From Ramazzottius varieornatus (lineage: Eukaryota; Animalia; Tardigrada): a stretch of 64,000 nucleotides of DNA. Below, piece after piece: positions 26,991-60,525 of the stretch. The notes below the pieces were generated by a model. It had not been told where the DNA came from. It saw nothing but the letters and a program-made list of their open reading frames with translations, and did no database searches. Position 1 is the stretch's first letter. Every line of letters starts with the position of its first letter. The translations under genes were made by a program, and so were the position numbers. Location of the stretch: positions 817,971 to 881,970 of the forward strand of contig BDGG01000007.1 in assembly GCA_001949185.1 (NCBI GenBank). The letters are read 5' to 3'.

Positions 26991-29900
26991 ATGGCAACGG
27001 AGCCCGAGCCAGTCAACCCCACGCAGATTCGTGTCCTCGAGACGGTGGAGGATATCCAGAATCGCCGTCATGAAGTGCTGTCCCACTATGATGAATTCAA
27101 GAGAGAGACCATCGAGAAGCGTCACCGACTAGAAGATGAACTGCGCTTTCAATATTTCCGTCAGGATGCCAACGAGATGGAATCATGGCTGTATGAAAAG
27201 CTGCAAGCTGCGTCAGACGAATCCTTCGTCAAAGACTCCACCAACATCAACGCCAAACTGGTCAAGCATCAAAACTTCCAGGCTGAAGTCGAGCAGCAGT
27301 ACAAGATTCAGATTGCTCTAGATGGTGAAGGTGGCAAGATGATTTCAGGCCAGCATCTGCGGTCGCAGTTGATCCAGGTATGATAATTTGATGTTATACG
27401 TATGGGTTTTAAGGGGTGGAGGCTTGTATGTACGTGCATGTCGTTTTGTCGAATGCGCGCACGCGCACCTTGTGAGCATGGCGTGCATCTGCACATTTTG
27501 TGGATGCACATACCGGAACCTTCGTCCCCTCATTTTGAACTTTCGACGCGCGTTAATTGAAACAGCTGCACTGACGTCACGTTTACAAGGTTTCCATTAT
27601 GGAAAACGCACGATTTCTAATGTGTCGTTTCATCTCGGTTGTAGGAACGGTTGGACCAACTCCACCGTCTTTGGGATCTTCTTCGCCAGAAGCTCAGCGA
27701 ACGGAACATCCGGCTGGAGCAGTCCCGGAAGTTGGCCGAGTTCTTACGCCAATGGGAAGAAATGATGTATTGGATTCGTGACAAGGAGACATGGTTAATG
27801 ACAGACGATGCAGGGCGCGATTTGGAGCATGTCATGAACATGCAGCGAAAATTCGATGACTTTCAGAAGGTACCATTGCGCAGTTCGCACACAATACACA
27901 TTCCTTATCAGTTTAGAATGGAATGTCAACTTTATGGGTGCTTGCTGTAGGAATTGTCCGGGCAAGAGCGACGCGTCGTGGATATTGAAAACCTAGCAGG
28001 CCGTCTGATAGACCAAGAGGCTCACCCTGATAAGGACCTGATTGATGAGCGCCGTCGCACATTGCGTGAGAGCTGGAATCGCCTGCGTGAGCTGTCAGTC
28101 CGCAAGCAGGCCAAGCTACTGGGTGCTCAGGAAATTCAGCGCTTCAATCGGTAAGGCTCTCAGTGATCCTGTCTCCTTATCCCAAATTATCGATCCGTTT
28201 TCCCTTTCTGAACTGGCTGAAAAGCACTTCCGTGAATCATTGCCCGGTCAGTTTCGCTGTTTCAATGTCACACCCCGGGGGAAATTTGCGACGACTGATC
28301 GCAAAGATCGCCATCTTAGGTGGCGCGCGGCTCGAGCCAACGCCAAGGAAAGTGTGCGTCACTTGAGATGACGATCGTGTGCGTAACGTCTGGCGACCTC
28401 GCAATTGCATTATACATTACCAGACTTGCGTTCTTACATAACGCACACAACAAGTCTTCATTATTCACGAGTTAACCACAGAAAAGACGAAGTTAGATAG
28501 CGCAAAGGATAATCTTTCACAACACAGCAAGTCGAGGTACTTTCTTGAAGGTGTTAGGTAAGCCCCATTGTTCAGGTTTGACAAAACGATGCCTTCGATC
28601 TTGCGGAATATTCAGCTCAGGCGGCTGCTCGGTTGATGGTCCGAAAAGGGCAGATGAAAGCGGTGGTATAGTGAGTTCTGTTGGGGATGAAGTAGCAGTT
28701 GAGTCTGGGTCTGAACTCGACTTTTGGACTTCGGACAGGAAGCTCGTCACGGGCAGATCATTCGATGACTGGACGTCTGAGACATTTTTTGAGGATGGGT
28801 CGAAATCGTCTTTGAATGATTTAGAGATAAGAGCAACGATTGAGCTGGGCGGAAGTGAGACCGGTGTGGTGGTAATTGTAACCGTTACTTCGAACAGCGG
28901 ATGGTTAACATTTTCCTTCCTAGCGAAAGTTCTTCGGGAGGACATTGTCGTAGCGTCGTCAGGATGAACGATACTTGTCTTCGCAGTAGGGAGGTTTTTC
29001 ATGAAATCAGATGGTAGATCACGGGAAGGATATTCAGTTAACATGTAACCGTACTCGTCACCCTCGTAGTCAGGCGGAGATGTTGTGGTGTGGTATCGGG
29101 GTCTTTGTCGTGTTTTCGGTCTTTGAGTATACGTATCATCTTCGGTTACGATGGAGAAAGGGTTATCGAAACCGTCGTTTTGTAGTTCGACAGAAGTGGT
29201 TATGATGACGGAGGATTTCTTCCGGTGGATGTGTGGACGACGGTAGCGGCGCCTGGTGCTCAGGATTTTTTCTTCGGACTCGTCGTACTCTTCGGGATTA
29301 GTTTCTTTCGAGTCTTCGTAGTCGTCTGGTGGTAGGGTAGTGGTTCTTCGTCCCCGTTGGCGTCGTTGTCTTTTTGGGGAGGGCGCAGTGTTCTCTGTGG
29401 ATGGTGACGGAAACCGTAGAGTCTCTGTCGAGGGAACTACCGATGCTGAACGGGTCGAGGTCGAAAAGGTGGAAGCAGTTGTGGTACGCGGTTTTGTCGC
29501 TCTTGTGGGGGTGATACTGGAAGTTGGGCTAATGTCTGATGATGTATCTGGCGTAGCTATCGAAACTGATGACGAAGTTGAAACTGTAGCGCTTGTTAAA
29601 TGTGATTCTTGGCTGATTTCCTGGGTGGCCCGTAACCTCAAGGAAAGTCCCGATGATCTTCTGGCGGTGCCCTGATCTCCGCTGGAAAAGCTGGGCTCCT
29701 CGGTCGTCTGTATATTTTTCCGCTTGTTCTTACGTCGCTTCGTAGTGTCAAAAATCTCGATAGGCGGAACTGTCACCTAATCGACGAAGAAAAACGTTTT
29801 AAAAGTAGTTTGGTGGCATAAATTTGGTGAAAGAAAGCATCGTTTCACCTCGTCTGGAGCAGCCGCGGAGAAGGGCGGCTCGGTCGTGGTCTCACCGGTG

Positions 29901-32900
29901 TCCGCTACCTGCTGCATCGGTACTTCGGCTATGGTGAACGTCGTTGTTACCTCGATCGCGGCGGCGACACTTGCCTTACTCCCATCTGAGTTCTTTATAC
30001 TTGTCGGAATGGCACCGATCTTTGCTTGGATTGGCTCGTCCCCTTTCTTTTTATCTTTGTCGGAGCCTTTGTTCGTCACTGTGGACGTAGTGGTCGTCGT
30101 AGTTGTTGGCACAGAGGTGGTAGTTATGGGTGCTGTAGTCGTAGTCTCGACGGTCTTGATCTTTCCTGGCTTGTTGGTCGCTGTAGTTTCGGGAATAGCT
30201 GGCGCTACATAAACCCCGGTCGTTGTATCGTCTGAAAATAATCCATACACCGGTCTTCCACTCGGCACTCCACTTCCCTCGTAGCCAGTAGTACCACCAT
30301 ACGACGACCCATACTCTGACATGGGTCGATGAGGTAACACTCCATAAGGTCCCGGTGTCGTTTCATACTGACCATACTGACCATTCGGTGGATACACCGG
30401 ATATTGCGGGTATGGTTGCAGGTACAATGGTGGTCCGATAGCGTAGGGTATTTGCAGTGTGTTCTGAAGGTCCTGCGGGAGTTGATTGGGTGGCACGTAT
30501 CCAGGGTTGGTTATGATGGGGTAAGCTAAGTTGGTGGGTGCTGGAGGATACGGAGGAAATCCGTAGACTGGAGGTGAGGTAACGTATGGGGAAGAAGGTC
30601 GTTGGGGAGAGTAATACCATTGGGAGTTTTGGGAAGGTGGTGGGTAGGATGGTGGGTATGGAGAGAAGGTGTTGGGTGGTAGTGGGACCGTGAAGGTGAC
30701 GGTGCGGCCATCGGAGCTGTTGGTGATGGAGAGGATTTGGCCTGGGGGGACGGGTGGCATGTTGACGAGTGAAGCTGTGAGGCTTCCTGCGCCGTTGAAA
30801 TTGGCGGAGAAGAGAGGGAATAGGGTGTTGGGAGGGTCGCGAGGGATGGAAGTAGGCAGGAGGAGCGCGTTGGCTAGAACGGAGGACTCCACTGCCGAGA
30901 CTATTTTAACGGAAAAGCGAAAGAGTGATATAAAGAAGAATAACGAATTGAAACGCAAAGAAGTGAATCGAGCCATGATGTCTTGCTTATATCGGTCTTG
31001 ATAAACTTCGTTTCTGTGGTCAGGCAGAAGACAATCGTTTGGAAGAAGATAGATTGACTTGAAATGAGAGACTTTTGCCCGGTGGCGATGACTTGGTCCG
31101 AATAAGCGTGCGAAGATCCAAATACGAAAATGTTGTCACGGAAGGATAGTAAAGTTTTCTTCGCGATTTCGAAGGCGAAAAAATAAAATCCAAGCTTTTT
31201 ATTGGTTTTGAGTAATTTTGGAATAGTATTTGAATTTTATTTCAAATTTAGGGATGCCGATGAGACGTTGATTTGGATTGGTGAACGCGAAGTGGCGGTG
31301 CAGTCCGATGATTTCGGCAAAGATTTGCCGTCGGTCCAAGCACTGCTCCGGAAACACGACGCGGCGGAACGTGACTTGTTGGCGTTACAAGAAAAAGTGA
31401 CGTTGTTGATGGAAGATGGCGCACGCATGCGCGATTCGCACCCAGATGAAGCGGCGCAGATTGACGAAAAACTGGCTGAAGTGACGCGCCGCTGGGAGGC
31501 TCTGCGCTCCCGAGCCACTGCTCGCAAGCAACGACTGGACGACTCGCAGCTCGTTCATCGCTTCTTGTCGGAGTACCGCGACTTGATTGGCTTCATCCAC
31601 GATACACAAGGTTTGTCAAAAACAGCACGTTTAGAAATCGAGACGTCAGAAAAAAATATCACGCAAATCGTTGTCGCAGTGGCGCAGATTTCCAGCCAAT
31701 ATTAATCAAAACGTGCGGCACTTGAGGTAACGATCTGTGTGAGGTCATTTTCCGACGTCCCAAATTGTGTGTCTTGTAATCAAATTTGTAGCGTTACCGG
31801 AATGTTCAAGTGTCTCTGTGTTAATCCTGGGCATGTCTCTAGGGGCAATGAAGGCCGACGAGCTGGCAAAGGACGTCTCTGGCGCGGAAGCCATCTTGGC
31901 TCGCCACAATGATCGCAAGTCACAGATCGACGCCCATGAAGAGTCCTACCACAGCACGGTACAGTTGGGAGAAAGTCTCATTCAGACTGGTCATCACGCC
32001 GAAGCCGACATTCAAGACAAGGTAAGCTATGAAGTTTCTCGCCCTTGCTCAAAATTAGAACGACTCCTTTTGATAAGAGAAAGACGTCGTCTGAGAAATG
32101 GGCCGAAAAAATTGTCGAAAATCTGGTTGAGCGAAAAGTCTGTCGAATTTTTGATAGCTTTACTACATTTGGACCAGCCACATGAATAATCTTTTTTCAG
32201 TTGAACAACCTGCGTGCAGAGTGGCAGTCTCTGCAAGACTTGTGGCACGAACGCCGCATCGCCTTCGAGCAGAACATGGACTTGATGCTGTTCTACCGGG
32301 ACACGGAACAAGCCGAGACTTGGTTGGCCAAACAAGAGGCTTTCTTGTCCAACACGGACATTGGCGAATCACTGGACGATGTCGAGTCGCTGCTGAAGAA
32401 GCACGAAGACTTTGAGAAATCTCTGGAGGCACAGGAAGCCAAAGTCCAAGCTTTGGATGATTTCGCTGGCAAAGTAAGCAGTCATAGGAATCGCTAACAA
32501 TTTCGAATTAATTTCACTGGTTCAAATTTTGTTTTAGTTGATCGAAAATCAGCATTACGCAGCTGACGAGGTCTCCAAGCGTCGAACTGAACTTCTCGAG
32601 CGTCGAGAGGCCTTGTTGGAGCGAGCCAGCAAGCGCCGACAGTTGCTGGAGGAAGCTGCCAAGGTTCAGCACTTCCTCCGGGAGTCAGATGAAGCTCGAG
32701 CTTGGATCAACGAGAAGACCAAGATTGCTTCGGACGAGAACTACTTGGACCCGACCAACTTGGCTGGCAAATTGCAGAAACATGCCACGCTGGAAGGCGA
32801 AATCCGCGCCACTCGAAGTACTATTCCAGAAATCCAATCAAATATTTGCTAGTTAAGGGCCACAAAACAAACGCGACAAGATTGTTTTCCCAGGTGCTAC

Positions 32901-35900
32901 ACGCTTCCGCCAATAATAACAGAAACGTGCATCACTTGGAAGAAAAATCTTACCGACATTTTTTTTCAAGTGGCGCTCAACGTCGGTACAAGCTGAAGAT
33001 ATGCGCCACTCGAAAGAAAGATCTTGTCGAGTTTGCTTGCCGAGCTTCCACTTTTCCGTCTAATGATTTTTTTTATTTGTTTTTCTTCGTTCTAATGTTT
33101 TCTGGATTTTGTCCTGTAGGTCGGATCGATGAAATTAATCAGCGTGGGCAAGAGCTAATCAACCGTGGACATTACGCGTCCGACCAAGTTCAGCGAAACT
33201 TGGATGACTTGAACTCTTCCTGGACTAACTTGGAGAGACAGGTGGCAAACAAGGGTGGGCGACTGCAGGAGGCCAACGAAGGCCAGTCCTTCAACCGCGA
33301 TGTGGATGATGTGGAAATGTGGCTGGCGGAGGTGGAGGCCCAACTGGCTTCCGAAGACCTGGGCAAGGACTCTGCCTCGGCTTTAAATCTCCAGAAGAAG
33401 CATGACTTGCTGGAACAGGTTGGAGAAAAGACCAAAATCATATTCTTTTAGGAATATAGTAAGGTTGGTTTGTCGTTCAAACAGGATATCTTGGCTCATC
33501 AAGATCGCATCGATCGGGTTTCAGCGGAAGCCGACAAGCTCGTCCAGGCTAACCATTTCGATGCTCCCAATGTGGCTAGCAAACGGGACCATATGTTGCG
33601 TCGCTTCGAAGCTCTGAAGGTACATTACCCAACTCACAACTCCGAGAGCGATTTTCGTCGTAAACAGAGAAGTCGATGGACTTTAGTTTCTTGCGTTAGT
33701 GCACCTGCATTCTCAGTGCCTTACGTTTACTATGGTGCGCCGTACGCATGTGCATGCAATTTAGGATTGTTTCTCAACCTGCATACCGCAAGCTGTGGTT
33801 TTACTGCGCTGTTTCAGTGTGCAGGTCATGCGAGTCCTCTTGTGTTTGAGAGTCCATTGGACCTTGCTATAAGTCATTTTTATCATCTCCAGCCATGATC
33901 GTCCTGAGAAGAAGTTGACTCAGTACATTGGATAATAATTCGGACTTGTGTTTTCAGGAACCCATTCGACGACGTCGTTCTCGCTTGGAAGATTCACAGC
34001 GTCTTCACCGTCTCTACCGCGACTTGGACGATGAAGAAGCGTGGGTGCGAGAGAAAGAGCCGGTGGTGTCTTCTCAGAACCGTGGAAGAGACTTGATGGG
34101 CGTGCAGAACCTGATCAAGAAGCACCAGAGTGTCATGAGCGAGATCGCGGCTCACGAGCCCCATGTTGAAGCTGTGGCTCGTGCTGCTGACGACCTGGTG
34201 GACCAAGGACACTTCGCCGCTCCCGACGTCCGGGATCGACGCAACGCGCTGGTTGAACACTGGAACTACTTGAAGAACAAGTCGGCACAGAGGAAGCAAG
34301 ACTTGGAGGACTCTCTGCAGGCACATCAGTACTTTGACGCCGCCAACGAAGCCGAGGTAAGACAGTTCCTTATCTTGCACGTACCTGCATACATTCATCG
34401 CCGTATAAATAAGAGAAGTCACGTATTCAGGTGCTGGCAAGCTTAAACGTTTTCCTGCTGATCTTCCAGATATGTTGTTCGAACACGCAAATTGTTCGTC
34501 CAGTCTGAGTTTCTTTATAGGCTAGAATGGCTGAGTGGCAGCCCGTGGTGCTGAGTCGTGATATCGGAAGGGATGAGGACTCGTCGGAGGCTGCGTTGAA
34601 GAAGCACGAAGCAGTCATGGTGAGCTCCGTCTCAATGAGCTGACAGTCTGCATGCTTAGGTGCTGAATTATGATGTTGATGAGTGTTTTTGCTTTTGTAG
34701 GCCGATGTGGTGGCGTATGGATCGACCATTCAAGATTTGAGGAACCAGGCTGAGGCATGCAAGCAGCGGGACATCCCCGTCCTGCTGCCTTATGGACGCG
34801 AAGTGGCTACGGCCACCTTCGACTACACGGAAAAAAGTCCACGAGAAGTGTCCATCAAGAAGGGCGATATCGTCACGGTGCTGAACAACCGTGATAAGAA
34901 TTGGTGGAAGGTTGAAATCAACGACAGGTGATTCTTTATTACGTCAGAAAATATTCGTAAATAATTTGATGTTAATTTTGTGCCGATGTTTTCCAGACAA
35001 GGCTTCGTTCCGGCGAGTTACTTGAAGAAAACCGACTCGAAATTATCGGCCAGTGAGCAAAGCCTGATGGACCAGAACACCATCAACGCCAAGCAGCGCC
35101 GCATCGAACAGTTGTACGAGACGCTGCTCACTTCCGGTCGTAGTCGCAGTGATAAGCTGAAGGAGTCGCTCAACGCCTTCGTCTTGGCTCGAGAAGCCCA
35201 AGAATTGGCTCAATGGATCAAGGAGAAGCAACAGTTTGCAGCGCATCAAGAAATTGGTGAAGACTTGGAACAGGTCGAAGTTATGCAGAAGAAGTTCGAC
35301 GACTTCCAGGTAAAAAGATGAATGAATGTTTTGTTATGTTCAACTTTGGGTTTACAAAATAACTTGAAAAATTTCGCGTGGTACTGACAATTGCCGAAAT
35401 TGCTGGGATGAATGCGACAATGTTTTGCAGCGTATAGAGGAATGTTAGTAACTGATCATGACTAAAATAGGAGCTCCGTTAGTGGCGCACGCTTTCAACC
35501 AGTGACACCGATGATATGCGCCACTTGGAAAAACAGTCTTGTCGAGTTTGTTTTCTGAGCTGTTACTGAGGATGGAGGGGAATTTTTCCTAAGTCTGAAT
35601 TCTGATGTTTCTTATGATTGTAGGCCGATATGCGAACCCATGAGGAACGTCTAAAGGAGATGAACCAGGCCGCTCAGCGTTTGAAGGATCTTGGTCACAC
35701 CGAGGCGGCCATGCGCATCCAGACGCAGATCGAAGAGCTCAACCAGCAATGGACCACTCTGCAGACCATCACCAAACAGCGCGCTGTCCAGTTGGGCAGT
35801 GCTCATGAGGTGCAACGCTTCCACCGAGACGCGGATGACACCAAGGACTGGATCCACGAGAAGCAGGAGGCTTTGGACAGCAACGATCTGGGACATGATC

Positions 35901-38900
35901 TGCGCTCTGTTCAGACACTTCAACGCAAACATGAAGGTAAAATTTCCGGCCAAACATTTTCGATTCGATTTTACAAGAAAGAAGTGAAATATTAACCAGA
36001 AAATTTTTCAAAATAAAAAAAGTGAAAATGTTCCAAAAACCAACAGAGTTTTTTAAAAAAGGGAATGAAACTCGCTGGAAAGAATCCGACCAGATCATTT
36101 TCTCAAGTGGCGCATCTCTACGGACTGTTGACTGAAAGCGCGCGCCACTTGGAAAAGCAATTGCGTCTAGTTTGTTTTCCAGAGTGGCGCACATCCTGGG
36201 ATTTCGGCTAGAGGCGTGCGCCACTGGGAAAAGATCTGATCAAGTTTGTCAGCCGAGCTATCAGACATTAGGTCTTTTGAATTTCTTGGGTTATTTTGGG
36301 AATTTTTCGCTGTAGGTTTGGAGCGCGATTTGTTCGCCTTGGGTGAGAAAGTTCGCCAGCTTGACGAACTAGCTACCAAGCTTCTCAACACGCACCCGGA
36401 ACAAGCTGAGAACATTTACGGTAAGCAGAAGGAGTTGAACGAGGACTGGTCGGCCTTGACGCGCAAGGCTGATGCCAGGAAGGAGCAGCTGCTGGAGTCA
36501 TACGACCTACAACGCTTCTTGGCTGACTTCCGCGATCTGACTTCGTGGATCAACAGCCAGCTGGCTCAGGTCTCTTCGGACGATTTGGCTAATGACGTGA
36601 CGGGTGCGGAGGCCCTGCTGGAACGTCATCAAGAACTGAGAAACGAGATCGACGCAAGATCGCCGGCCTTCCAACAGTTCGAGTTGTTTGGTCGACAGCT
36701 CATCCAGAAGAAGCACTATGCGACGCCTGACATCCAGGACGCTCTGGACAAAACCAAGGAAGCCAGGTAAGCCTACTAAGAGAATTTAAGCCCTCCTGCA
36801 TACTCTGGTCCACAATCATGTTGCTGCGATTTCCTAGTATGCAGGTGGATGAAAAGGTGGTCAAGTCGCTGTTCACCCACCTGCATGCAACTAGTCACAC
36901 TTTTGTCAAGGAGAGCGAGTATGTAGGTGCGTGAGAGTTTGTCAGATTTCTGCTCTGTATGCTGACCGGTTGTTTTGTTGGCAGGGATGAACTGAACAAG
37001 GAATGGGCGCTACGACAGAAGCGCTTGGATGACTGCTTGGAACTGCAGTTGTTTAACCGCGACTGCGAACAGTTAGACACATGGATGAAGAACCGCGAGG
37101 ACTTTGTCAGCGCTGAAGACGAAGGCGATGGAAAACAGAATGTGGAGACTCTCATCAAGAAATACGAGGTAAAAAACTGTTGGCTGTGTTCACGTACCTG
37201 TGTACACACGCATGCTCACAGGTACATGAACGCAGGTTCTCGACCAATTCTTCATTCTGACCGTTTTTTTCATGTTGCTTGTAGGATTTTGACAAGACGA
37301 TTCGGTCGCAAGAGCAGAAGATTGGACAGATGAACCAGTTTGCCGATCAGCTGATCAGTGGTGGTCATTACGCGTCGCCGGAAATCGACCGCAAGCGTAT
37401 GGATGTCCTGGACCGTTGGAAGCGACTGAAGGAGGCCATGATTGAGAAGCGCAACCGTTTGGGCGAGTCCCAGACCTTGCAGCAGTTCTCTCGGGACGCT
37501 GATGAAGTGGAGAACTGGATCACGGAGAAACTCCAAACCGCCACGGAACAAACCTACAAGGATCCAGCTAACATTCAGAGCAAGCACCAGAAGCACCAAG
37601 CCTTCGAAGCTGAGCTGGCCGCGCACGCTGACAGGATTCAGAGCGTGTTGAATACCGGCAAAAGTACGTAGAAAAATGCTCAAATCCTGCTTGTCTGTCT
37701 TTGTTATCATGCTGAAAACTGTTCAAATGAAAATTGTAAATCTCGAAAAAGAAATCAATGAAGAACGAAGTGGGGAAATGTTTTAGACGAGGTTTCGGTG
37801 ACGAGGACTGACCACGATTTTTGTTTCGTAGATTTGTTGGACAAGGGTGGCGCAAGCGGAAGTGAGACTGCTGTAGAGCAGCGTTTGAAGGCGGTGGCTG
37901 AACAATGGGAGCTTCTGACCCAGAAGACTTCGGAGAAGACTTTCAAGTTGAAGGAAGCCAACAAGCAGCGAAGCTTCAACGCTGCTGTCAAGGATTTGGA
38001 CTTCTGGTTGGGCGAGGTAAGAATGAGATAGTCCTTTGCTTTTCTAGGACTGACTTCTCTCTCGAGCTACGAACCAGGTGCATGGATGTAAGAATAATCT
38101 TACTGGCTTGATTTCAGATGGAAGCTTTGTTGAGTTCGGATGAGTACGGCAAAGATCTGCCATCAGTCCAGAACCTGCTGAAGAAACACAACTTGATCGA
38201 GGCGGATATCACGGCTCATGACGACCGTGTCACCGACATGAATGCACAGGTAAGCTCTTCCCATGGATATTTCCGATGGATTTGACAAATCCGCATTCAT
38301 TTCTTGCACTAACCTGCATACACACGTCGTTCAGACTGGTTAGAGTCTGGTGTATGCAGGTGTATGCAGGTGGCTGCAGTAGCTCTAAATTTTGGATAAA
38401 GTACCGCGAATGTTTTTAATGTCATTTTTTACGACTATCTGTTCGCAGGCCGATGATCTGGTAAGCAGTGGTCAGTTCGATACGCCCTCCATCCAAGATC
38501 GTCGCAAGTCCATCAACCAGCGCTTCGAGCGTATCCGCAATTTGGCAGAACATCGTCGCCAACGCTTGAACGAGGCCAACACACTGCACCAGTTCTTCCG
38601 CGACATTGCCGATGAAGAGTCCTGGATCAAGGAGAAGAAGCTGCTGGTGGCTTCCGATGACTATGGTCGAGACCTGACGGGCGTGCAGAACCTAAAGAAG
38701 AAACACAAACGCCTGGATGCTGAGTTGGCTAGCCACGAGGGCGCCATCCAGAACGTCCAGAAAGCCGGAGCCAAACTCATGTCGGAAACCTCACAGGTAT
38801 GAATATTCAACACTTGAAACGTCGGCAAATGATTTTACCCAGATCGTTGTATCAAGTGGCGCACGTCTTCATTGTTCATGTCTGGAAGCGTGCGCCATTT

Positions 38901-41900
38901 GGACGATCGATGGTCCAAGTGGTGCGCGTTTTTAACTAGTAACAAGGGGAAAGCGCGCCACATGGGAAACGACCTGTGAGAATTCATTTGCGGGCATCTC
39001 ACTTTCGGTTTTGACTGTGAACTAATGGGTAATTCTATGTAGGGTGGGCCTGAGATCGAGCAGCGTATCCAAAACTTGGAGCAGAACTGGGAAGACTTGA
39101 AGTCACGCGCTGGTGAACGTGGATCTAAGCTGGACCAGTCGAATGCCTTCCAGCAGTTCATCGCGAAAGTCGATGAGGAAGAAGCCTGGATTGGCGAGAA
39201 GGCCAACTTGATGCAGGTAAAGTGGAAGCTAGCTTGAGTATGGGTCTGGTGGCTAATGAAGCTGCTTTGTATGCAGGTGGATGATTTCGGTGACACCATC
39301 GCTGGCGTCCAAGGTCTGTCCAAGAAGCACGAGGCTTTCGAGACGGACTTGGGTGTCCACGTCGATCGCTGCCGGGAACTAGAGGCGGAAGGTGATCGCT
39401 TGCTGGCTGAAGGCAATCATCACCAGCCGGCCATCGAAGCAAGGTTGAGGCAGTTGAGAACAAGAATCGATCAGCTGGCCACCGCTTCGCGAGCTCGCAA
39501 GATGGCGCTGGACGAGAACAGCGCTTACCTGCAGTTCAACTGGAAGGCGGACGTCGTCGAAGGATGGATCGGTAAGACGGTAGGAACGCAAAGTCGTCAC
39601 GAGGGTTCGCCAGTTCAGAGAGCTTGCTTTCCACGCACCTGCATTCATCGAACTCCGAAGTTATTGTGGGCTGTCGGTGTGCAGGTGTGCACAGGCCGTC
39701 AGCGAAGAACCCCAGCGGTCTTTCACACTCCTGCGTACTCCCTGTTCGCACTAAATTTCTGGGTCGCTGTATACAGGCTGACGACGGGATGTTGTACGGT
39801 TATGTTGTGTCCCCACATACTGAAGTGTCGCGTGGTTGTTAAAAGTGAATGTATGGAGGTTGATAAAGTTTGCAATTGGCTGTTTTTGCAGCGGAGAAGG
39901 AAGCCCATGTTCGTTCGGACGATTACGGTCGGGACTTGAACTCGGTGCAGAACCTTCTGGCCAAGCAAGACACGTTTGAAGCCTCTCTTGTGGCCTTCGA
40001 ACAAGAAGGTATCCACAGTCTGACAGCCATGAAGAATAGGCTGGTGGCTGATGGTCATCGTCAGACTCAGGCCATCGTGAACCGCCATACTACCGTCATC
40101 CAACGCTGGCAGAAACTGCTGCAGAACGCGGCGTCTCGCAAAGAACGCCTGCAACAGATGCAGGACCAGTTCAAGAACATTGAAGAACTGTACTTGCTCT
40201 TTGCCAAGAAGGCTTCGGCCTTCAACTCGTGGTTCGAGAACGCCGAAGAAGACTTGACCGATCCAGTGCGATGCAACAGTGTCGAGGAGATTCGCGCTCT
40301 GCAAGATGCCCATTTGCAATTCCAAGTAAGTCCTTTTTCCAAAGGAAAGCAGGAAAATTTCGCTTGTGTGGTACCGTTCGTAAAGTGGCCCTCACGAGAG
40401 GCCACAAAATTCAAGATAGGTCTTACTGGTATTTATTTTTGCGACCCCCGTCTGAGATTCTCGTTTTAATGGCGGTTTTTATTTTCAGGAGTCGTTGACG
40501 ACCGCCGAGCAAGATTTCCGCCAGCTGGCTGACTTGGATCGTCGCATTAAAGAATTTGGAGTAGGACCAAATCCGTACACTTGGTTCACTATGGAAGCGC
40601 TGGAAGATACTTGGCGCAACCTGCAGAAGATTATTCGCGAGCGCGATAACGAGCTGAAGCGCGAATCGACTCGCCAAGAACGCAACGACCAACTGCGCGG
40701 CGAGTTCGCTCAACATGCTAACTCCTTCTACCAATGGCTCACTGAAACCCGCACCTCCATGATGGAAACGAGCGGCTCCCTGGAAGGCCAACTGGAACAA
40801 ATCCGCGTAAGTCTAGTTCCGAAGTTGCGACGTCGGATCATAAATCTGCCCAGATCGTTTGCCAAGTGGCGCACTCTTCCAGCCAATATTAGTGGAAACT
40901 GCGCCACTCGAGGTGGCGGTTGTAAGTGGCGCACGTTCCCAGCCAGTACCTATCAGAACATGCGCCGCTAATGACCGCGATCCTCGCTGAGTCTTTTGCC
41001 AACGTTCCACTTTATCGTGGAGATACTTCGAGGTAATACTTTTGATTCTTTGGTTGGTTGCAGAGAAAGGCAGCTGAAGTGCGCGCTCAACGTGATAGGT
41101 TAAAGAAGATTGAAGACTTGGGCGCCATGCTGGAAGAGCACCTCATCCTGGACAACCGCTACACCGAGCACAGCACGGTGGCCCTGGCCCAGCAATGGGA
41201 ACAACTGGATCAGCTAGGCATGCGCATGCAACACAACCTGGAACAACAGATTCAAGCCCGAAATACCTCCGGTGTCACGGAAGATTCCCTGCGAGAATTC
41301 AGCATGATGTTCAAGTAAGCAGAGTTGAGGTTGTGAATTTCCAAAGTGGAATATTAAACTCTTCAAACTCGCTCTACAGGCATTTCGACAAAGACCGTGT
41401 CGGGAAACTCGACCATGAACAATTCAAGTCCTGTCTTCGCGCTCTGGGCTACGACCTTCCGATGGTCGAAGAAGGCCAGCACGATCCTGAGTTTGAGGCT
41501 ATCCTTGACGAAGTCGATCGCAACCGGTGAGCTTTACCTTTTCTCAGTTCGATATTGTGCTGTCTTTGCATTCAGTGATTGACTAGGCAATGTCTTGTCG
41601 TTGCAGCATCGGCTACGTTAACCTGCAAGACTATATGGCTTTCATGATCAGCCGTGAGACGGAGAATGTCAGGTCCAAAGACGAGATTCTCCTTGCCTTC
41701 AAAGCCTTGTCGGCCGAGGAGAAACCCTACCTGACGCCCAACGAGATCTACGCGGTAAGAACCGCTCAGAGAAATCGAACAATACCTGATACCATTTCGC
41801 AGACTGGCAAACGAAAGGTGCAAGATCGTTATTTCCAGTGGCGCATGTTTCCATTTTTATCGATCCGAAGCGTGCGCCAGTTAACATTTTTATCCCAAGT

Positions 41901-42163
41901 CGCGCACGTTTCGTTGCTGCTGCCGGAACTGTGCGCCACTTGGGACAACGCTCCGATTGCCGACCTCCTAGTTTGTTTTTCCTCGATTGTTTCGGATTTT
42001 GTTACGGGAAAGAATAATGTGTCTTTCTTTGTAGAATTTGAGCAAGGAGCAAGCGGACTACTGCATGTCTAAGATGAAGCACTATGTGGACCCGAAGACC
42101 GGTCGCGAGGTGCCCAACTCCTTCGACTACCAGGACTTCACGCAGCAGCTCTTCCAGAGCTAA
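26991..42163 (+). CDS. SPTAN1: Alpha-spectrin (about 28 coding exons; spectrin repeats, SH3, C-terminal EF hands)
   Basis: N-terminus [18 protein letters not shown]; tandem spectrin repeats; SH3 [30 protein letters not shown]; EF hand [13 protein letters not shown]; ends FTQQLFQS* (TAA 42161-42163). Confidence 0.97.
28306..28376. repeat. Family A palindromic element (spectrin intron 3)
   Basis: GATCGCCATCTTAGGTGGCGC-29 nt-GCGTCACTTGAGATGACGATC. Confidence 0.8.
28517..30976 (-). CDS. Nested antisense gene: secreted Pro/Tyr- and Ser/Thr-rich mucin-like disordered protein (~795 aa, two exons)
   Basis: Hydrophobic N-terminal signal; 72-nt GT-AG intron 29848-29777 joins ..APDE|VTVPP.. in frame; lies wholly within spectrin intron 28151-31251. 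Confidence 0.8.
31665..31736. repeat. Family A palindromic element
   Basis: GTGGCGC(31679)-29 nt-GCGGCAC. Confidence 0.75.
32874..33046. repeat. Family A dimer
   Basis: Units at 32894 (28-nt spacer, degenerate) and 32970 (26 nt); outer arm ATCTTGTCGAGTTTGCTTGCCGAGCT. Confidence 0.75.
33704..33825. repeat. Family B dimer
   Basis: CCTGCATTC-29-GTACGCATG; CCTGCATAC-30-GTGTGCAGG. Confidence 0.7.
34384..34431. repeat. Family B monomer
   Basis: CCTGCATAC-30-GTATTCAGG. Confidence 0.75.
35471..35561. repeat. Family A monomer
   Basis: GTGGCGC(35482)-29-GCGCCAC plus outer arm TCTTGTCGAGTTTGTTTTCTGAGCT. Confidence 0.8.
36091..36259. repeat. Family A dimer
   Basis: Units at 36107 (28-nt spacer) and 36184 (27 nt). 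Confidence 0.85.
36795..36927. repeat. Family B dimer
   Basis: CCTGCATAC-33-GTATGCAGG; 34-nt linker; CCTGCATGC-30-GTATGTAGG. Confidence 0.8.
38313..38370. repeat. Family B monomer with a duplicated right arm
   Basis: CCTGCATAC-30-GTATGCAGG-T-GTATGCAGG. Confidence 0.8.
38840..38975. repeat. Family A dimer
   Basis: Units at 38856 and 38919, both with 29-nt spacers. Confidence 0.85.
39638..39859. repeat. Family B trimer
   Basis: Units at 39638, 39730 and 39812, each with a 30-nt spacer. Confidence 0.8.
40851..40982. repeat. Family A dimer
   Basis: Units at 40866 (28-nt spacer) and 40926 (29 nt). Confidence 0.85.
41822..41950. repeat. Family A dimer
   Basis: Units at 41838 (29-nt spacer) and 41899 (27 nt). 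Confidence 0.85.
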
Positions 42164-42730: not shown

Positions 42731-44950
42731 TTAGCCCGTTGAGGTTTCGGCGTTAACGAGGAACTCGCCCAAGTTGGCTACGTCAGGCTCGGCCACACTT
42801 ATTCCGTTCCTCGTTTTGTGCTTCTTGCCTTTGGCATTGCTGGGCCGTCCCTTTAGCTTGTGTTCGGTGCGTTCAACCCCGTGTTCCATCAGGTGCTGCT
42901 TGAGCGTCGTCAGCTGAGCTTCGGACACGGAGTAAATGGCGTGGAAGGACTCTTTGCACAAGGGGTGATCTTTGTCGAAACGGTACACAGCCATTCTCTT
43001 CTTCTTTGGATCTGCAGTAAAAGCATTCCTGAACTATTTCTATTTGCCTTCGAAATCTTTCGATGGCATACGGTAGCTCTGCAAGCAAACTCGAGAAGAG
43101 TGTTCTCCCAAGTGGCGCACATTCGGGGTGTTCTTGGCTGAAAGAGTGCGCCACTTGCCAAAAACGACCCTATCGAGTTAATTTGCAGAGCTCTCGTACT
43201 TCCTTGGTTTTTCAGCCGAAAAACACTTCGGAGAACGGAAAGATTCTTTAGAAAGCTTTGAGCTGAACTCATGATATTCGAGAGAATATTAAAAAAAGAA
43301 CGCCGAAATCCCATTTCTACTGGTTTTGGGAAAGCTACTTCTTACCAGTTTCCCTTTCATTGAAGTGGGCGGCTTGGACTAAGCCGACACCACCCGACAG
43401 TTTACCCAGCAGGAACATGTGTCTATTACTCGACTTGAGCTGCTTGATCTGGCTTCGTGTCTCTTCGATAACATCCCTGGGTATCATCTCGACGCACTTC
43501 TTCTTACAGCAGTCCTTCTCGTTCAGGACGAGACTTGCCGTGTGGCTCAGCTTCCCTGCTTTGGGGGTGACTTCCCCTTCCCCTTCCGCGCCCTCGGTCT
43601 CGGCCTCCGTCTCGTGTGCGACGGCCTTCCGTTTACGCGAGGCGACTGCGGCCGGTTCTTGGCCGAGCTGAGGAGTCTCGATGCCGGGAAGCTGGAGCGA
43701 GATCCCGTTCTCGAAGAGACAGTAACGAATGCGACGCATCTGTTCGGTTGTCAGATCGTGAATATACTGGAAACACGGCGAACAGACGATGGTGTCGCGG
43801 TCGAGAACGTACATCGCGCGTTTACCACCTGCGAAAGACTTGCCTGAGCGATATCCATAGTTTGGGAATCGGCAACCGAAACATACAAAATTGTCATCTC
43901 AAGTGGCGCACGCTGCCAGCCAAATTACAAACGAAAAGCTACGCCACGTAAGAAACGATCTCAACTGGCGTGGTTTCCCGTCAGTAACAACGGTACAACG
44001 CGCCACTTGAGATAACGATCTACGTTTCATTTGTCGACTCCCCATTCCTAACTGAAGCCGAAGTGCTGCTTACCTGTGACGATTTCGGTCTCGGGAAGAA
44101 GGGACACCGAATGGCTCATCTTTCCCAACAGGTACAGTTGTTTCTCCTGTTCCGTCAGTGCGCGCATCTGGACGCGTGTTAGGGCGATCAGCGGGGCAGG
44201 GAGTTTGGACCAGCAGTTTTGATCACAGCAATAGTTTCCCACAGCCACCTCGACGTCTTTCATCTCTTTGACCGTTTCAGCCTGGACATCTATGCGTAAA
44301 GGAGGTTCGACAGGAGTTGACTTCACTGTCGAAGATCCTGGTGACTTCTTGTAGGGTTTGCCTTTCATGTTCAGAGCTGGCACAGGCTCGTCTTTTTGTT
44401 CGATCAGGTGGCTCCGCAGGACACGGAGCTGCCTTGGGGAGAGACTGTAGACTGTTTCGAAGGCGACGCGACATAGGACGTGGTTCTTGTCGAAGCTGTA
44501 GTACGTCGGAGTGCCTTTTCCAGCTGAAAGAGACGAGAAACGACCAGTCTGCTCACGGTATGGATTGACAAAATCAAACTCCCAACCGCATATGATAGGC
44601 TGTACGGTTCACCCTTAAGACGCCAAATCAAGTGAACCTTCGAATGATTGACGAACAATGCTTGATTCTGATTTTTTTTCCCGATGCTCACCTCTTCCCA
44701 TCAATTCGCCTTTGATGTCCAACTGATCAATAGACGTAGAGATCTTCCCCAGCAGGAACATGTTCTTGTCTTGTGGGGAGAGAGCTGCGAGGAGTCGGTG
44801 AGTGCGATGGAGAAGAGTGATGGGGAATTCAGCCAGGCATCCTTTTCCACAGCAGGTGCCTTTCTTCGCGACGGTTGTGACGGTGTCATCGTCGTCGGGA
44901 ACAGTAACTGTCTTCCTACGGCGAGGAGTAGCAACTGTTGGTTCCGACAT
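42731..44950 (-). CDS. Protein with three tandem CCxxxC...LLGKxS...Y-x-F/L-D...L/V-C..F repeats, resembling a transposase N-terminal domain; no catalytic core seen
   Basis: ATG 44950. Repeats CCGKGC..FLLGKIS..YSFDKNHVLCRVAF, CCDQNC..YLLGKMS..YVLDRDTIVCSPCF and CCKKKC..FLLGKLS..YRFDKDHPLCKESF. An intron falls at the equivalent position in each repeat. Stop at 42731. Confidence 0.75.
43075..43193. repeat. Family A full-length monomer (~120-bp palindrome)
   Basis: AGCTCTGCAAGCAAACTCGA..CAAGTGGCGCAC..GTGCGCCACTTG..TCGAGTTAATTTGCAGAGCT; spacer 29 nt. Confidence 0.85.
43888..44021. repeat. Family A dimer
   Basis: Units at 43903 (31-nt spacer) and 43965 (28 nt). Confidence 0.8.
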
Positions 44951-45617
44951 CCTTCCGGCTGGAAGTGAGCTGCAACAAGACAACAAAGGAGGTATTTTCG
45001 AACGAGAAGGAATCGCTGGAAAACGAACAAAGATTTTGCACTGGGTGCCGCACCACGTCACCCGTTTCAGTTGACGATGGTTCAAATGACGTCACAAAAT
45101 GGCGAAAGGAATAGTAATAGTCCAGAAGTATCTGTAGATTACCAAAAGTACTTGAGTACTACTTACCGCACTTTTATCATTCTCCGTTTTGATCAGTCTG
45201 GCCAGAATACTTTGTTTTTCAAATACCAAAAACGTCTTTGATAAATTTTATTCTTCATCTTGATGAATGGGAGTTTAAAGTCGGATCTGTCTGTCTTGAA
45301 GTGACGCTCCACTATCACTTGCTGGTCGAATTCAATCGTAGCGAGGACGAAGCTGGAGTAACTGCGCGGCGATTGGCCTTGTACATGAAGAGCTATGACA
45401 TAAATTGTGATAACAGGTGCGCAAATTATTATCGTCCACTTCGATATCCATAGATAACCAACCGTTCCTAAACAAGGTCTCCGACTACATGATATCTCGC
45501 CGACGAGCAAGCAATATAAGTTCCACGGTAGCTCGATTAGGTTGTCGGTGCTCTCCAGCCACTGAGGCACTGTTTGCGACTTTTTAGGGTTCGTCATTGT
45601 GGCACCGTGCTTTTTCC

Positions 45618-48600
45618 ATGCAGTTTAAGTCGTCCCTAGGTGCTTGGCTGGGAGGAGCCTTGCTGGGTATTCTCTTTGCCATCCCTGTCGCACTTGCCAT
45701 TGTATTTGGTATACTGTACGGGCAGGCTAGCAGTGATCTGGAACAATGCCGCCAGCCTGTAACATCTACGCAGTCCACCTTGTCCACTAGTTCCGTTCCA
45801 TCCGGTAACTCCGGCCCATCCACAGCAGCGTATACCAGCGAAGGACCAGCGATAAACTTTACTTTGCGCCTTCCCGCAAGTATTGCGCCCATCCATTATG
45901 AACTCACCCTCCAGGTCTTTCTTCCCTTTGACCAAACTGAAGAAAGCCTCCCAAACACCTTTCGGACCGTCGGTACCGTCGAGATCACACTTAAACCTAC
46001 TGAAGACGATGTTGATCGCATTACACTTCACGCCAGAACGCAAGCTCCGTCCGGTAGCGGTAAGATATCGTTCTCGCCATCCCAGGTCCAGTTGCGGATG
46101 GGATGGAGTCAGCTACCAGTTGACCGGGTAGAGTTCCAACCGGAATCCGACGTTGTTGTGATCTTCCCAAGAGATAGACTATACAACGGTACGGAGTATA
46201 TTCTAACAATACGAGACTATGAAGGCGTTATCGCAAGTGACACTGAAGGACTGTATCGAAGTAGTTCTGAACGCAATGGTAGAAGGAACTGGCTGGCGGT
46301 GGCCAAGTTCCAGCCTCATAAAGCGCGGCGTATGCTTCCCTGCTTTGACGAACCAAGCTTCCGGAGTTCCTTCAGCGTGACAGTGAAGCACAATAGTCGG
46401 TTCACAACAGTAAGGAGCAATGGTGCGGGTGGCATCGGTAGACCTATTGGAGATGGGTGGACGGAAACGCGGTTTAGTACTACACCCAGTATGCCGGTAT
46501 ATCTGCTGACCATCTTGGTCAGTACTTTTGGACAGAGAACGGTGAACTACCAGCAAATGAGAAACTCTACTGTGAGTCGACGTGTCCGTTTTGAATATCC
46601 GTCAAGTCTCAAAAATCTTTGTTTGAAGACAATAGTCCACGCTCAAGATCTGAAGAGGCAGCGATGCAAAAATAACAAACCGTCTGTCAAGTTTCATACG
46701 TGATGATCCGAATTTTAATTAATAGATTTCGATTTTGGGGGTCGAAGATATGCTGCTGAAGCACGGTAATGTCACGTTTTCTCTTCAACAAAGCGAAAAG
46801 GCATTAGAGTGGATGGACGACAGATTTCAACAGCCCTATTTCAACTTCATGTCAAAGCTCGGTATTTGTCACGAATACTGTACTCCCGCGATACACACGC
46901 CATACTTCCCTCTGTATTAGGAAAAGTAGTACTGCAAGTAAAAAAGTGACGAAGTGGCGGAAGATTCCTCTTTAGAGTACAGCTTTTCGACTGATTATTG
47001 ATTCAATAAAGTTCAAATTTTCTGCCCCCGGGAGGTGCACATTCCTGACGTACGTACGAGTATGGCGTGTGTATCGCGGGAGTACAGTATTTTACCAACG
47101 TATCCACTCTCGTAGAAAAAACGCTCTGAGTAATTTTATGTTGCAGATCAGGCAGCTCTGCCTGATTTTCCAGCGGGTGCTACCGAAGATTGGGGATTGG
47201 TGCTTTACCGAGAAGCAAACTTGCTCTACGAGCCAGGTGTCACATCGGCTGATAATAAGCGGGCAATTGCTGGAGTGATCGCCCATGAGCTCTCTCACAT
47301 GGTTTTCGGGAATTTACTTACCTGTAAGTGGTGGTCCGATACATGGATGAATGAGGGATTCGCCAGATTTCTCCAGTACGAAATACTACACGATACAAAC
47401 CGTCAGTGGGGACTGGTAAGACGGAGAAACATCTATTACAAAAACTCCAAGTCTCAGTTCTTTTATTTTGTACTGTAGAACGCACTGGTGCCGTACTTGT
47501 CGACCCAAGTCGCAATGCAGTTGGATGCGTACGATACCGCGCATGCCTTGTACAACCCCAACGTCGAAACTATTCCACAGATTGAAAATATGTTTGGCAC
47601 CCTAAGTTATGCGAAGGTGAGCTTCCACGTCGAATCGTTCTGCGACGCTCCTTATTGAATCCATTTCTTCGGAACAACAAGCTATGTTTTGTAGGGAGGC
47701 TCCATTCTTCGGATGATGAAGGGTGTAATGGGGAGCGCGTTTTACGGCGCGCTGAGGAGATACGTGGCCAGATTCAGATTTCAAAATGTGGAACATGACG
47801 ATCTGCTGACGGTGTTGAGTGAAGAGCCCATCTCCGTCGGGTTCCCCGCTACTAACAAACATATTGACTTCAACAGCCATATGAAAACCTGGATAGTGAG
47901 CAACGGTTATCCGGTAATCACACTAAGACGTGTGGGTCCTGGACCTCGAGATATCACTTTCGAACAAAAACGGTTTCTGCTTCGGGCGGGAAACAGCTCA
48001 GCACATGCGGGGGTGGATAAAACTCGGACGTGGCACATTCCCCTCGTCCTATCTTACGGCTCCAGTGGAATTGACAGTGTTGGAGCACCCGGTTGGGATT
48101 ACGGTTATGGAGCCGACAAACTCTGCTGGATCACTAAAGCCACAGGCGGGATCATAATCTGAATAATTGTATATTGTGTGTGGAGGATTTTTGTTCAGAA
48201 TGTTTTTTTTGTCTGTGCAGGTCGTTTACTATCAGAATGCCCAGGTGAGTGGGGTTCCTATGTGTCTTGGCCACCACTGCCGCCATCGGACAACTCCTCT
48301 ACCAATTTTATCATCGCCAACCCTGGCCAGACCGGAATGTACCGGGTTAATTATGACAGAGAAAACTGGCGTCGCATTGCGCTTTATCTCAACGCCGGTC
48401 CTGATGGCCATCGTGTGAGATCCGAAAATGATTTACTATGTGTCGAACCAGTTACAGTATTCCATGCCAACTTTTGCTGACAGATGATGTATGAAGTGAC
48501 CAGAGGTCAGTTGATTGACGACGCATTCAACCTTGCCCGGACAGGAGATTTCGATATCTCATATGAAGTCGTATTCGACCTGATGCGATATCTTCCATAC

Positions 48601-49827: not shown

Positions 49828-50585
49828 AGTTTGACTTTCCATCTGTCACTCGAGCTGTGGCTCCATACATACTCGCGCGCTTGGGCTTTCGAAAGTTTTT
49901 TACAGGCACGAAGCGAAAGGTTGAAGCAGTAAAAAGTTTGCATCAGACGGACATACGTCTGTTCCGCTATTTCTACTGCTCCAAACTTTACCTTCGTGCG
50001 TGCAGTGGAAGTAACTTACCTATCTCTGGAGGGCCCGTAGTATCACGCCTAGGACATTTGCGTTTAGTTTAACGGGGCATAGCGTAATATTCTAACCAAG
50101 AATGCGGCCGGCGGCACAAATTTAAACGTAGAATCGGGGGTTTCTGGAAGGTGGTTCAGTGGTCGGAAGAGCCTGATCCGTCATCCTCCTCATTTGTTTG
50201 CTCTTTTGTTATCATCGCATTCACTCGGCCTTCCCAGTGGTCAGGACCACTAGCTAGTACATAGTATCAGTTGCTTGCAAAAGCGGAGAACGATGCATAA
50301 TATCTTACTAGCTAGTGGTTCTGACCACTGGGATGGCCGAGCAGAAGCAAAGAAGCACAAGTTTTGCGAGTAAAAACTTTTGCTACTCGGATCAAGTTGC
50401 GCACTTGATTTCAGTACTGAGGTTGCGATATCTGAAAGCTCGAACAATCTGATCGTCCATTGAAATCTCGACAAGCTTAAAAGGGCCTCGCTGCGCTCGG
50501 CCTGACAATCGATCCAATTTCTTTTTTATACACTGCGGAGGGTTAGTGTTCAAGATGGCGGTCGAAAGCTCTGCCCACATCTGTG

Positions 50586-59971: not shown

Positions 59972-60525
59972 TTATTTGGTTGATAGTTTATTCAGTTCCA
60001 GGAAAATATCCTCGTCCACCCAAGTCGCTTCCTCTTCCGTTTCTCCTTGCCATTTAATCAAGTATTGTCGCTTTGTGCGAACATCCACAATTCTCTCGAT
60101 CTCTGGGGTCGATTCTTCCACTGCGGCGTTCGGCTGTCCGGACGATGTTTCTGTGGTTGATTCCACAGTCGGTTCTTCGGGTTCGCCATCAGTCCACTCT
60201 TTCTCGGAGTTGACTTCCTCATTTCGGTTTGCCGTAGCTAATTTAGCAGTTGATTGTACCAACCTTGAGCACTATTGCAATTAATGCATCCGCTCTGATA
60301 CCATGGATCGAAACAGCTGACAGGAACAGCAACGACTTACAAGTTTCGTTCCTTGAGAGTTTTTGACACACTCCTGCAGCTCACATTACGCACCTTAGCT
60401 GCAGCTTTGATAGTCATATTGTTCTGCGTCGTGCAGCCACTAGTCGCCCTAGATTGCCCACAGTTCAGCAGAATAATTCCCCGCGCCAAAAGAAGACGGA
60501 ATTCAGTACTCGTAGCCCTACTCTA
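59972..60525 (-). CDS. HTH-like plus chromodomain protein, paralogue 2 (5' end uncertain)
   Basis: MTIKAAAKVRNVS..TLK exon, intron 60340-60264, then EIERIVDVRTKRQYLIKWQGETEEEATWVDEDIF. Confidence 0.65.

What the first reader, a model, noticed from the sequence alone, without database searches (positions are those of the whole stretch)
33704..39859. Family B: CCTGCATAC-N30-GTATGCAGG units with dissimilar fixed-length spacers in mini-arrays
Seen, as unit start (spacer length): 33704 (29), 33778 (30), 34384 (30), 36795 (33), 36880 (30), 38313 (30), 39638 (30), 39730 (30), 39812 (30), plus a degenerate unit at 37197 (22). Seven of ten spacers are exactly 30 nt and look mutually unrelated by eye; linkers between units are 27-44 nt. 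Alternating inverted arms around constant-length unique spacers resemble a cassette or array architecture. This does not look like a simple satellite. Inference: a spacing-constrained binding site or recombination/processing signal that I cannot assign to a known family.
Basis: partly seen in the sequence, partly recalled or inferred. Interest (0 to 1): 0.85.

Follow-up and report, generated by a model that had tools for sequence, protein, structure and literature searches.

The report
Tiny palindromic repeats in tardigrade introns
Ten short mirror-armed DNA units with a mostly 30-base variable core lie in introns of a tardigrade alpha-spectrin gene and match an unclassified repeat family of that species; they are likely old miniature DNA transposons, not a CRISPR-like cassette.

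Summary
In detail: 10 units, 7 of 10 spacers exactly 30 nt, linkers 27-44 nt, far beyond chance. All lie in six introns of an intact alpha-spectrin gene of Ramazzottius varieornatus. The same arms, with 29-32 nt cores and in doublets, stand in the published repeat library of this species as uncurated 'Unknown' families and inside non-autonomous hAT elements. A sister family in neighbouring introns, with the same design and a 25-nt core, is a catalogued 123-bp non-autonomous DNA transposon labelled Sola. The spacers are not wholly unrelated (weak residual identity, p 0.002-0.03), match nothing foreign in the one array tested, and the arms show no compensatory pairing. Best reading (0.55): an old, diversified miniature DNA transposon family in which mobilisation preserved only arm and spacing. 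Main rival (0.25): the host keeps the dyad as a protein-binding site. What stays unusual is that arms and core length are kept while core sequence is nearly saturated. No transposase, secure target duplication or genome-wide count was obtained.

The parts
26991..42163 (+). Host gene: alpha-spectrin, 28 exons, 2420 aa, all 27 introns GT-AG, no internal stop
   Evidence: hand-built exon model translated; spectrin and SH3 domains; not checked against RNA
33704..33750 (.). Family B unit, 29-nt core, intron 9 (first of doublet)
33778..33825 (.). Family B unit, 30-nt core, intron 9 (second of doublet; linker 27 nt)
34384..34431 (.). Family B unit, 30-nt core, intron 10; outer arms extend to about 34374-34441 (68 bp), candidate 4-nt target duplication outside them
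36795..36845 (.). Family B unit, 33-nt core, intron 15 (first of doublet)
36880..36927 (.). Family B unit, 30-nt core, intron 15 (second of doublet; linker 34 nt)
37197..37236 (.). Degenerate family B unit, 22-nt core, intron 16; boundaries uncertain
38313..38370 (.). Family B unit, 30-nt core, intron 19 (38313-38360), with a 10-nt tandem duplication of the right arm to 38370
39638..39859 (.). Family B triplet in intron 22: units 39638-39685, 39730-39777, 39812-39859, all 30-nt cores, linkers 44 and 34 nt; candidate 4-nt target duplication 10 nt outside the triplet
31639..31761 (.). Comparator: one full 123-bp copy of sister family A (25-nt core) in intron 4, flanked by a perfect 4-nt direct repeat
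   Evidence: library length and 4-bp TSD

Best explanation
The units are copies of a roughly 68-bp inverted-arm repeat family of Ramazzottius varieornatus that is likely an old, non-autonomous miniature DNA transposon (MITE-like), inferred to have inserted singly or as doublets and triplets into short introns. Shown: two arms of about 19 bp (inner 11 bp well kept) face each other across a 29-33 nt core; the family recurs in the species' repeat library; the arms behave as a kept DNA sequence, not as a kept hairpin. Inferred: a transposase supplied in trans recognises the arm pair at a fixed distance, so over many rounds of copying only arm and spacing were preserved while the core, probably once palindromic, drifted into many subfamilies. 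Each copy would then have decayed neutrally after insertion (about 9% in the arms). The spacers would be inherited cores, not acquired DNA.
For: Species: an eIF4E-like ORF is 194 of 194 identical to R. varieornatus GAV01440.1. Library (PMC11071193 supplement): the 9-mer stands at 10 places and its complement at 6, all in the R. varieornatus sheets; raw 'Unknown' consensuses ramVar3-55 and ramVar4-421 are doublets with cores of 29/29 and 30/29 nt and linkers of 27 and 31 nt, ramVar1-111 has a 32-nt core, and one unit with a 29-nt core is read in full in ramVar1-362 and -144 and in part in the hAT/MITE elements ramVar1-394, -356 and RV-B-G14 (lengths counted by eye). Several library cores are partly self-complementary (by eye). 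Sister family A has the same design (10 of the 16 units analysed have 25-nt cores); it is ramVar1-7, curated as DNA/Sola, 123 bp, 4-bp TSD, and 3 of 9 window arrays have a perfect 4-nt direct repeat at the distance that length predicts, 3 more 3 of 4 (cross-pairs 5 of 72, p 0.04). A's library has tandem multimers too. B arrays: 3 of 6 have a 4-nt direct repeat 10-12 nt outside the core arm (cross-pairs 2 of 30, p 0.024). B introns are longer than element-free ones (p 0.01) and shrink to 56-196 nt without the array, against a median of 81. Arms: 68 of 81 pairs intact, 0 compensatory, as independent decay predicts (0.837 expected, 0.84 seen).
Against: No transposase or autonomous partner was found or searched genome-wide. 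The B target duplication is weak: the distance was picked after scanning 58 distances with one base of slack, and 3 of 6 arrays lack it. Outer-arm and core similarity do not co-vary (Mantel r -0.12 for B, -0.09 and -0.03 for A), so no subfamily tree is visible in the window. No window spacer has a near-copy in the window (best 15-20 matches of 22-33). All B units lie within 6.2 of 64 kb (p about 4e-4 for five independent introns), which needs local hopping or retention. In A the core motif (0.89 to majority) is better kept than its flanks (about 0.58, from the column counts) although the library consensuses share those flanks, which host selection would also give. Three other curated A consensuses are listed as 'DNA, TSD unclear'. 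Library consensuses may average unlike cores and come from the same species, so they are not independent.
Confidence: 0.55

Rival explanations
1. The units are transposon-derived but are now kept by the host as a fixed-spacing, two-fold binding site for a dimeric or multi-domain DNA-binding protein (regulatory, chromatin or chromosome-pairing role), as CERP2 motif pairs are used by HIM-17 in Caenorhabditis.
For: Sharp inner edge of conservation; arms 0.84 pairwise against 0.29 in cores and length kept in 7 of 10; nearly every strong arm is paired; clustering in one gene; core of A better kept than its flanks; A's core is the enriched upstream motif MRv-8, 312 sites (PMC11609603 supplement).
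Against: Arm decay of 9% with no position-specific rescue tested; the same pattern follows from selection during transposition; the B motif was not among the exact strings found in that motif table (0 places; degenerate letters could hide it); no binding, chromatin or conservation data were available.
Confidence: 0.25
2. The units spread like bacterial REPINs: as single-stranded hairpins copied by an HUH-type enzyme, with selection on arms, spacing and fold rather than on core sequence.
For: Same layout as REPINs: inverted conserved ends, less conserved spacer, fixed distance, tandem clusters (PMC3116915 passages). 5 of 9 units fold with z below -2.5. Several library cores are self-complementary (by eye).
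Against: No compensatory pair in 81 core positions; in-register core self-complementarity is at chance (0.27-0.29 against 0.25, p 0.13-0.40); 3 of 9 units fold no better than shuffles; the sister family shows target duplications, which point to a cut-and-paste enzyme; no HUH gene was seen.
Confidence: 0.08
3. The units work as RNA: intronic hairpins, small-RNA precursors or splicing signals (the right arm reads as CAG|GT).
For: All are intronic; 6 of 9 are predicted to form 60-70 nt hairpins with z of -1.8 or lower; the real acceptor of intron 21 equals the right arm.
Against: 0 compensatory changes; G-U to A-C mismatches (18 of 29 G-U) equal the intron strand skew (expected 0.595, p 0.85); no Rfam family reaches its gathering score in 26-45 kb (best E 0.015, 28 bits against 99); hairpin folding follows from any palindrome. 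RNA reads were not available.
Confidence: 0.05
4. The arrays are cassettes that capture foreign or genomic 30-nt pieces between recombination arms (CRISPR- or integron-like).
For: Constant core length with nearly unrelated sequence; alternating arms in arrays.
Against: Residual core homology; defined cores in multi-copy library families and inside a hAT element; only chance-level phage hits for the one array searched (4 records, E 0.2-10); no recombinase or Cas-like domain among 25 window ORFs scanned; linkers differ, so there is no repeated direct unit.
Confidence: 0.03

Closest known systems
R. varieornatus raw repeats ramVar3-55, ramVar4-421, ramVar1-111, -144, -362 ('Unknown'); Peona et al. 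2024, PMC11071193
   Same: Same arms, 29-32 nt cores, doublets with 27-31 nt linkers; same species (lengths by eye).
   Different: They are uncurated consensus strings; the main-text parts I read (1-3 of 6) do not describe them, their ends, their target duplication or their constant core length.
R. varieornatus family A: ramVar1-7 (DNA/Sola, 123 bp, 4-bp TSD) and ramVar1-23, -6, -39 (DNA, TSD unclear)
   Same: Inverted core arms around a fixed-length core, tandem arrays, intronic in the same gene.
   Different: Different arm sequence, 25-nt core with clear homology (0.41-0.43 against 0.27), long outer arms and defined ends; B is shorter, its ends are unsure and its cores are nearly saturated.
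C. elegans CERP2/CELE2 MITEs with m1m2 motif pairs bound by HIM-17 (bioRxiv 10.1101/2022.01.21.477252)
   Same: MITE-borne motif pairs with characteristic spacing and no known autonomous parent.
   Different: There the pair joins two different motifs, and promoter function and binding are shown; here one motif faces itself, copies are intronic, and no function is tested.
Bacterial REPINs/BIMEs (PMC3116915)
   Same: Two inverted conserved ends, less conserved spacer at a fixed distance, tandem clusters.
   Different: REPINs keep a hairpin and are tied to RAYT tyrosine transposases; here no compensatory pairing and no such enzyme were seen.
Plant SIRC elements (bioRxiv 10.64898/2026.03.27.714674)
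   Same: Short repeats with diverse spacers, proposed to be internal MITE structure.
   Different: SIRC repeats are direct; these arms are inverted and the core length is fixed.

Membership tests
MITE / non-autonomous DNA transposon | Short and non-coding | tested here: met
   About 68 bp per unit, wholly intronic
MITE / non-autonomous DNA transposon | Inverted repeats at or near the ends | tested here: met
   Arms of about 19 bp; 111 of 171 positions pair, 68 of 81 in the core. Whether they are truly terminal is not established.
MITE / non-autonomous DNA transposon | Target site duplication | tested here: inconclusive
   3 of 6 arrays, cross-pairs 2 of 30, p 0.024, distance chosen after looking
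MITE / non-autonomous DNA transposon | Many interspersed copies in the genome | tested here: inconclusive
   Implied by several library consensuses; no genome was held, so no count
MITE / non-autonomous DNA transposon | Homogeneous internal sequence among copies | tested here: not met
   Half-cores 0.28-0.29 identical; uniform length is met in 7 of 10
MITE / non-autonomous DNA transposon | Autonomous partner sharing the ends | not testable with these tools
   No eukaryotic genome available; no transposase domain among 25 window ORFs scanned
Sola1 non-autonomous element | 4-bp AWWT-type target duplication (PMC3845634) | tested here: not met
   The three B candidates are not AWWT. For family A two of three perfect repeats are AWWT and one differs by a base.
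REPIN | Hairpin kept by complementary changes | tested here: not met
   0 compensatory pairs in cores; 10 in 19-bp arms against 8.2 by permutation, p 0.27
REPIN | Linked RAYT/HUH transposase | not testable with these tools
   None seen in the ORFs scanned; genome not held
CRISPR-like array | Identical direct repeats with foreign-derived spacers and cas genes | tested here: not met
   Arms alternate in orientation, linkers differ, chance-level phage hits for 1 of 6 arrays searched, no Cas domain in ORFs scanned
Known structured RNA (snoRNA, miRNA, Y/sbRNA) | Rfam match at gathering score | tested here: not met
   3 matches at E up to 1 in 26-45 kb, none at gathering score
Co-opted MITE regulatory element (CERP2/HIM-17 type) | Factor binding and orthologous conservation | not testable with these tools
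   No chromatin data and no related genomes available

The most novel reading that the evidence does not exclude
Ramazzottius carries a long-lived population of minimal dyad elements in which only an 11-bp motif and a 29-30 bp spacing are under selection, and the host now keeps them as fixed-geometry protein-binding marks concentrated in introns of particular genes: an animal counterpart of REPINs that has been co-opted for chromatin or gene regulation.
Probability: 0.2. Interest if true: 0.65.

Novelty: new variant of a known kind. Interest (0 to 1): 0.3.

Why it matters
On the best reading it is a modest gain: it gives ends, design and a likely class to an unclassified repeat of a model extremotolerant animal, and its conservation profile maps which bases and what spacing a small element needs in order to persist. 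It also warns that a reported upstream motif (MRv-8) is the core of an abundant transposon. If the host keeps the dyads, they would be a ready, testable case of transposon co-option in a species with a working expression vector.

Tried and rejected
Deep conservation across tardigrades: first assumed when the best named hit was Paramacrobiotus (79%); dropped when the ORF proved identical to a Ramazzottius protein. The Hypsibius sheet of the library has no exact arm 9-mer (cells are cut at 400 letters). Prokaryotic or viral origin: exact-pattern scans gave 3 metagenome, 2 viral and 1 prokaryote-genome locus, each a lone match without an array; the family A pattern gave 0 viral loci; a spectrin exon gave none. 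Intron-generating element: distances to splice sites vary (28-85 nt from the donor to the first unit, 33-133 nt from the last unit to the acceptor), although 3 of 6 arrays start 28-29 nt from the donor. Recent tandem duplication as origin of the arrays: neighbouring cores are at most 15 of 30 identical. Simple satellite: not called. Subfamily structure inside the window: not detected. A 10-bp internal repeat in the arm is hinted (0.48 identity at offset 10, 0.44 at offset 4) but was not tested against a null. Earlier scan notes: three look-ups, nothing held. The protein-representative search added nothing. No read data were obtained, so splicing, expression and strain polymorphism stay open. 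Library cores were compared with window cores by eye only.
Full report
Observation. Seven of ten cores are 30 nt; the others are 29, 33 and 22. The arm 9-mer with at most one mismatch occurs 23 times against 9.1 expected, and none of 100 shuffles reaches that. A scan that knew no motif found only two dyad families in the 64 kb, this one and a sister family, and nothing comparable in 10 shuffles. A profile built from nine units scores them 27-48 bits per pair against a null maximum of 19 in four shuffles; this is circular for those nine, but the tenth (37197), left out of training, scores 28.5, and no pair outside 33.7-39.9 kb exceeds 15.

Setting. The units lie in introns 9, 10, 15, 16, 19 and 22 of an alpha-spectrin gene that I modelled by hand: 28 exons, 27 GT-AG introns, 2420 residues, no internal stop (domains). 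The model was not checked against RNA. An eIF4E-like ORF nearby is 194 of 194 identical to Ramazzottius varieornatus GAV01440.1, so the window is from this tardigrade. My earlier guess of Paramacrobiotus was wrong. The six B introns are 116-338 nt, the 13 introns without either family have a median of 81 nt (p 0.01), and removing the arrays leaves 56-196 nt. That fits insertion into short introns.

Anatomy. Over 18 arms, conservation covers about 11 bases strongly and 8-10 more outward weakly, and stops at once on the inner side. Arms are 0.91 identical to consensus and 0.84 pairwise. Half-cores are 0.28-0.29 identical, against 0.25 for letter shuffles (p 0.002-0.004) and 0.264 for random intron pieces (p 0.028; the bootstrap interval 0.24-0.35 includes the null). 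So the cores are close to saturation but probably not unrelated. One ancestor decaying neutrally cannot give this contrast (p below 1e-15 for the arms), and 7 of 9 unchanged lengths has p between 0.09 and 4e-7, depending on an indel rate that I assumed and did not measure. Something preserves arm and spacing.

It is sequence, not pairing, that is preserved. Of 81 core arm pairs 68 are intact, none is compensated, 5 are G-U, 3 A-C and 5 other. Left-right identity is what independent decay predicts, and the G-U share equals the intron strand skew. Five of nine units fold with z below -2.5 and three no better than shuffles. No Rfam family reaches its cut-off in 26-45 kb. Cores have no near-copy in the window, the one array searched against phages gave chance hits, and collection scans gave six lone matches without arrays.

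The sister family. Family A has an 11-bp arm facing itself across a core that is 25 nt in 10 of the 16 units analysed; one weak unit at 20972 and alternative pairings of the same arms were left out. It fills eight other spectrin introns and never shares one with B (p 0.09). Its cores are clearly homologous (0.41-0.43 against 0.27).

The library. Peona et al. 2024 (PMC11071193; main text parts 1-3 of 6, supplement searches and part 52 of 60 read) published repeat libraries for this species. Family A is ramVar1-7, curated as DNA/Sola, 123 bp, 4-bp TSD, with many sister consensuses (59 places for its arm), three of them curated as 'DNA, TSD unclear', and some tandem multimers. The 123 bp predicts a duplication 38 nt outside the core arm: 3 of 9 window arrays have a perfect one there and 3 more have 3 of 4 (cross-pairs 5 of 72, p 0.04); one perfect repeat encloses a doublet. 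AWWT is the Sola1 target (PMC3845634 passages). Family B is there too, uncurated: ramVar3-55 and ramVar4-421 are 'Unknown' doublets with cores of 29/29 and 30/29 nt and linkers of 27 and 31 nt, ramVar1-111 has a 32-nt core, and one unit rides inside non-autonomous hAT elements. These lengths, and the partial self-complementarity of several library cores, are read by eye. All arm hits are in the Ramazzottius sheets, none in the Hypsibius sheet; cells are cut at 400 letters, two supplementary files were unreadable and the supplement store did not answer, so hits may be missing. For B, 3 of 6 arrays have a 4-nt direct repeat 10-12 nt outside the core arm, where the arm profile ends (cross-pairs 2 of 30, p 0.024), but I picked that distance after scanning 58.

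How it most likely works. I infer an old non-autonomous DNA transposon of about 68 bp (0.55). A transposase in trans would need the arm pair at a set distance; lineages that lost either stopped spreading, while cores drifted into subfamilies; copies then decayed after insertion. Against it: no partner enzyme, a weak duplication signal, no subfamily signal inside the window (Mantel r -0.12 for B, -0.09 and -0.03 for A), and tight clustering in 6.2 kb (p about 4e-4). The main rival (0.25) is host selection on a two-fold binding site. In its favour, A's core is kept better than flanks that the library consensuses share (0.89 against about 0.58; a search by outer arms alone found few copies with a decayed core, but that profile was trained on the same copies), and A's core is the enriched upstream motif MRv-8 of Ishikawa et al. 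2024 (PMC11609603; parts 1-2 of 5 and a supplement search). The two are not exclusive, and one window cannot separate them. A REPIN-like hairpin replicator (0.08), an RNA or splicing role (0.05) and a spacer-capturing cassette (0.03) fit worse. That the outer end of each arm is an E-box-type hexamer is a recalled label, not a result.

Comparison and novelty. It works like a MITE, but I do not file it as one: internal homogeneity is not met and the target duplication is inconclusive. The closest analogues are C. elegans CERP2/CELE2 (bioRxiv 10.1101/2022.01.21.477252, parts 1-2 of 5; its supplement with spacing plots is closed), bacterial REPINs (PMC3116915, passages) and plant SIRCs (bioRxiv 10.64898/2026.03.27.714674, part 1 of 3). 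Ten literature searches (listings only, apart from the papers named) and a term search of the genome paper (PMC5034306, passages) showed no description of this family's design; the library lacks most subscription papers. The sequence family itself is already deposited. Verdict: a real, previously unclassified variant of a known kind of repeat; interest 0.3; the co-option reading has probability 0.2 and would deserve 0.65.

Noticed in passing
window 20972-59850 (mostly 23354-43948): Family A: about 17-19 inverted-arm units with a 22-29 nt core (mode 25), in eight spectrin introns and nearby; equals library ramVar1-7 (DNA/Sola) and relatives; its core is the reported upstream motif MRv-8.
   Followed up: yes
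window 39217-39276: Spectrin intron 21 (60 nt) has an 8-nt direct repeat spanning both junctions, the longest of 27 introns; it looks like a gained intron, and its acceptor equals the family B right arm.
   Followed up: partly
window 28517-31135, minus strand: Long Thr/Pro/Ser-rich ORFs nested antisense in the 3.1-kb spectrin intron 3; no Pfam hit.
   Followed up: partly
window 18282-18824: Element with 27-nt inverted ends that resemble, by eye, the start of library ramVar1-792 (DNA).
   Followed up: partly
window 46874-47091, 50224-50341, 56745-56870, 58269-59076: Further elements with long, near-perfect inverted arms (28-50 nt), probably younger MITEs.
   Followed up: no
window 14188-15987: Reverse transcriptase ORF pieces of a non-LTR retrotransposon (RVT_1).
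   Followed up: no
window 42910-45091, minus strand: ORFs with a thrice-repeated Cys-rich segment and no Pfam hit.
   Followed up: no
window 23663-25152, minus strand: Divergent eIF4E-like gene with close relatives only in tardigrade-like records (79-98%) and others at 28-44%.
   Followed up: partly
window 57509-58000, minus strand: ORF with weak HTH_psq and chromo matches below Pfam cut-offs, overlapping a 110-nt repeat also found at 59994.
   Followed up: no
window 34384, 36795, 37197: Three of six B arrays begin 28-29 nt after the splice donor; may be a minimum tolerated distance or chance.
   Followed up: no
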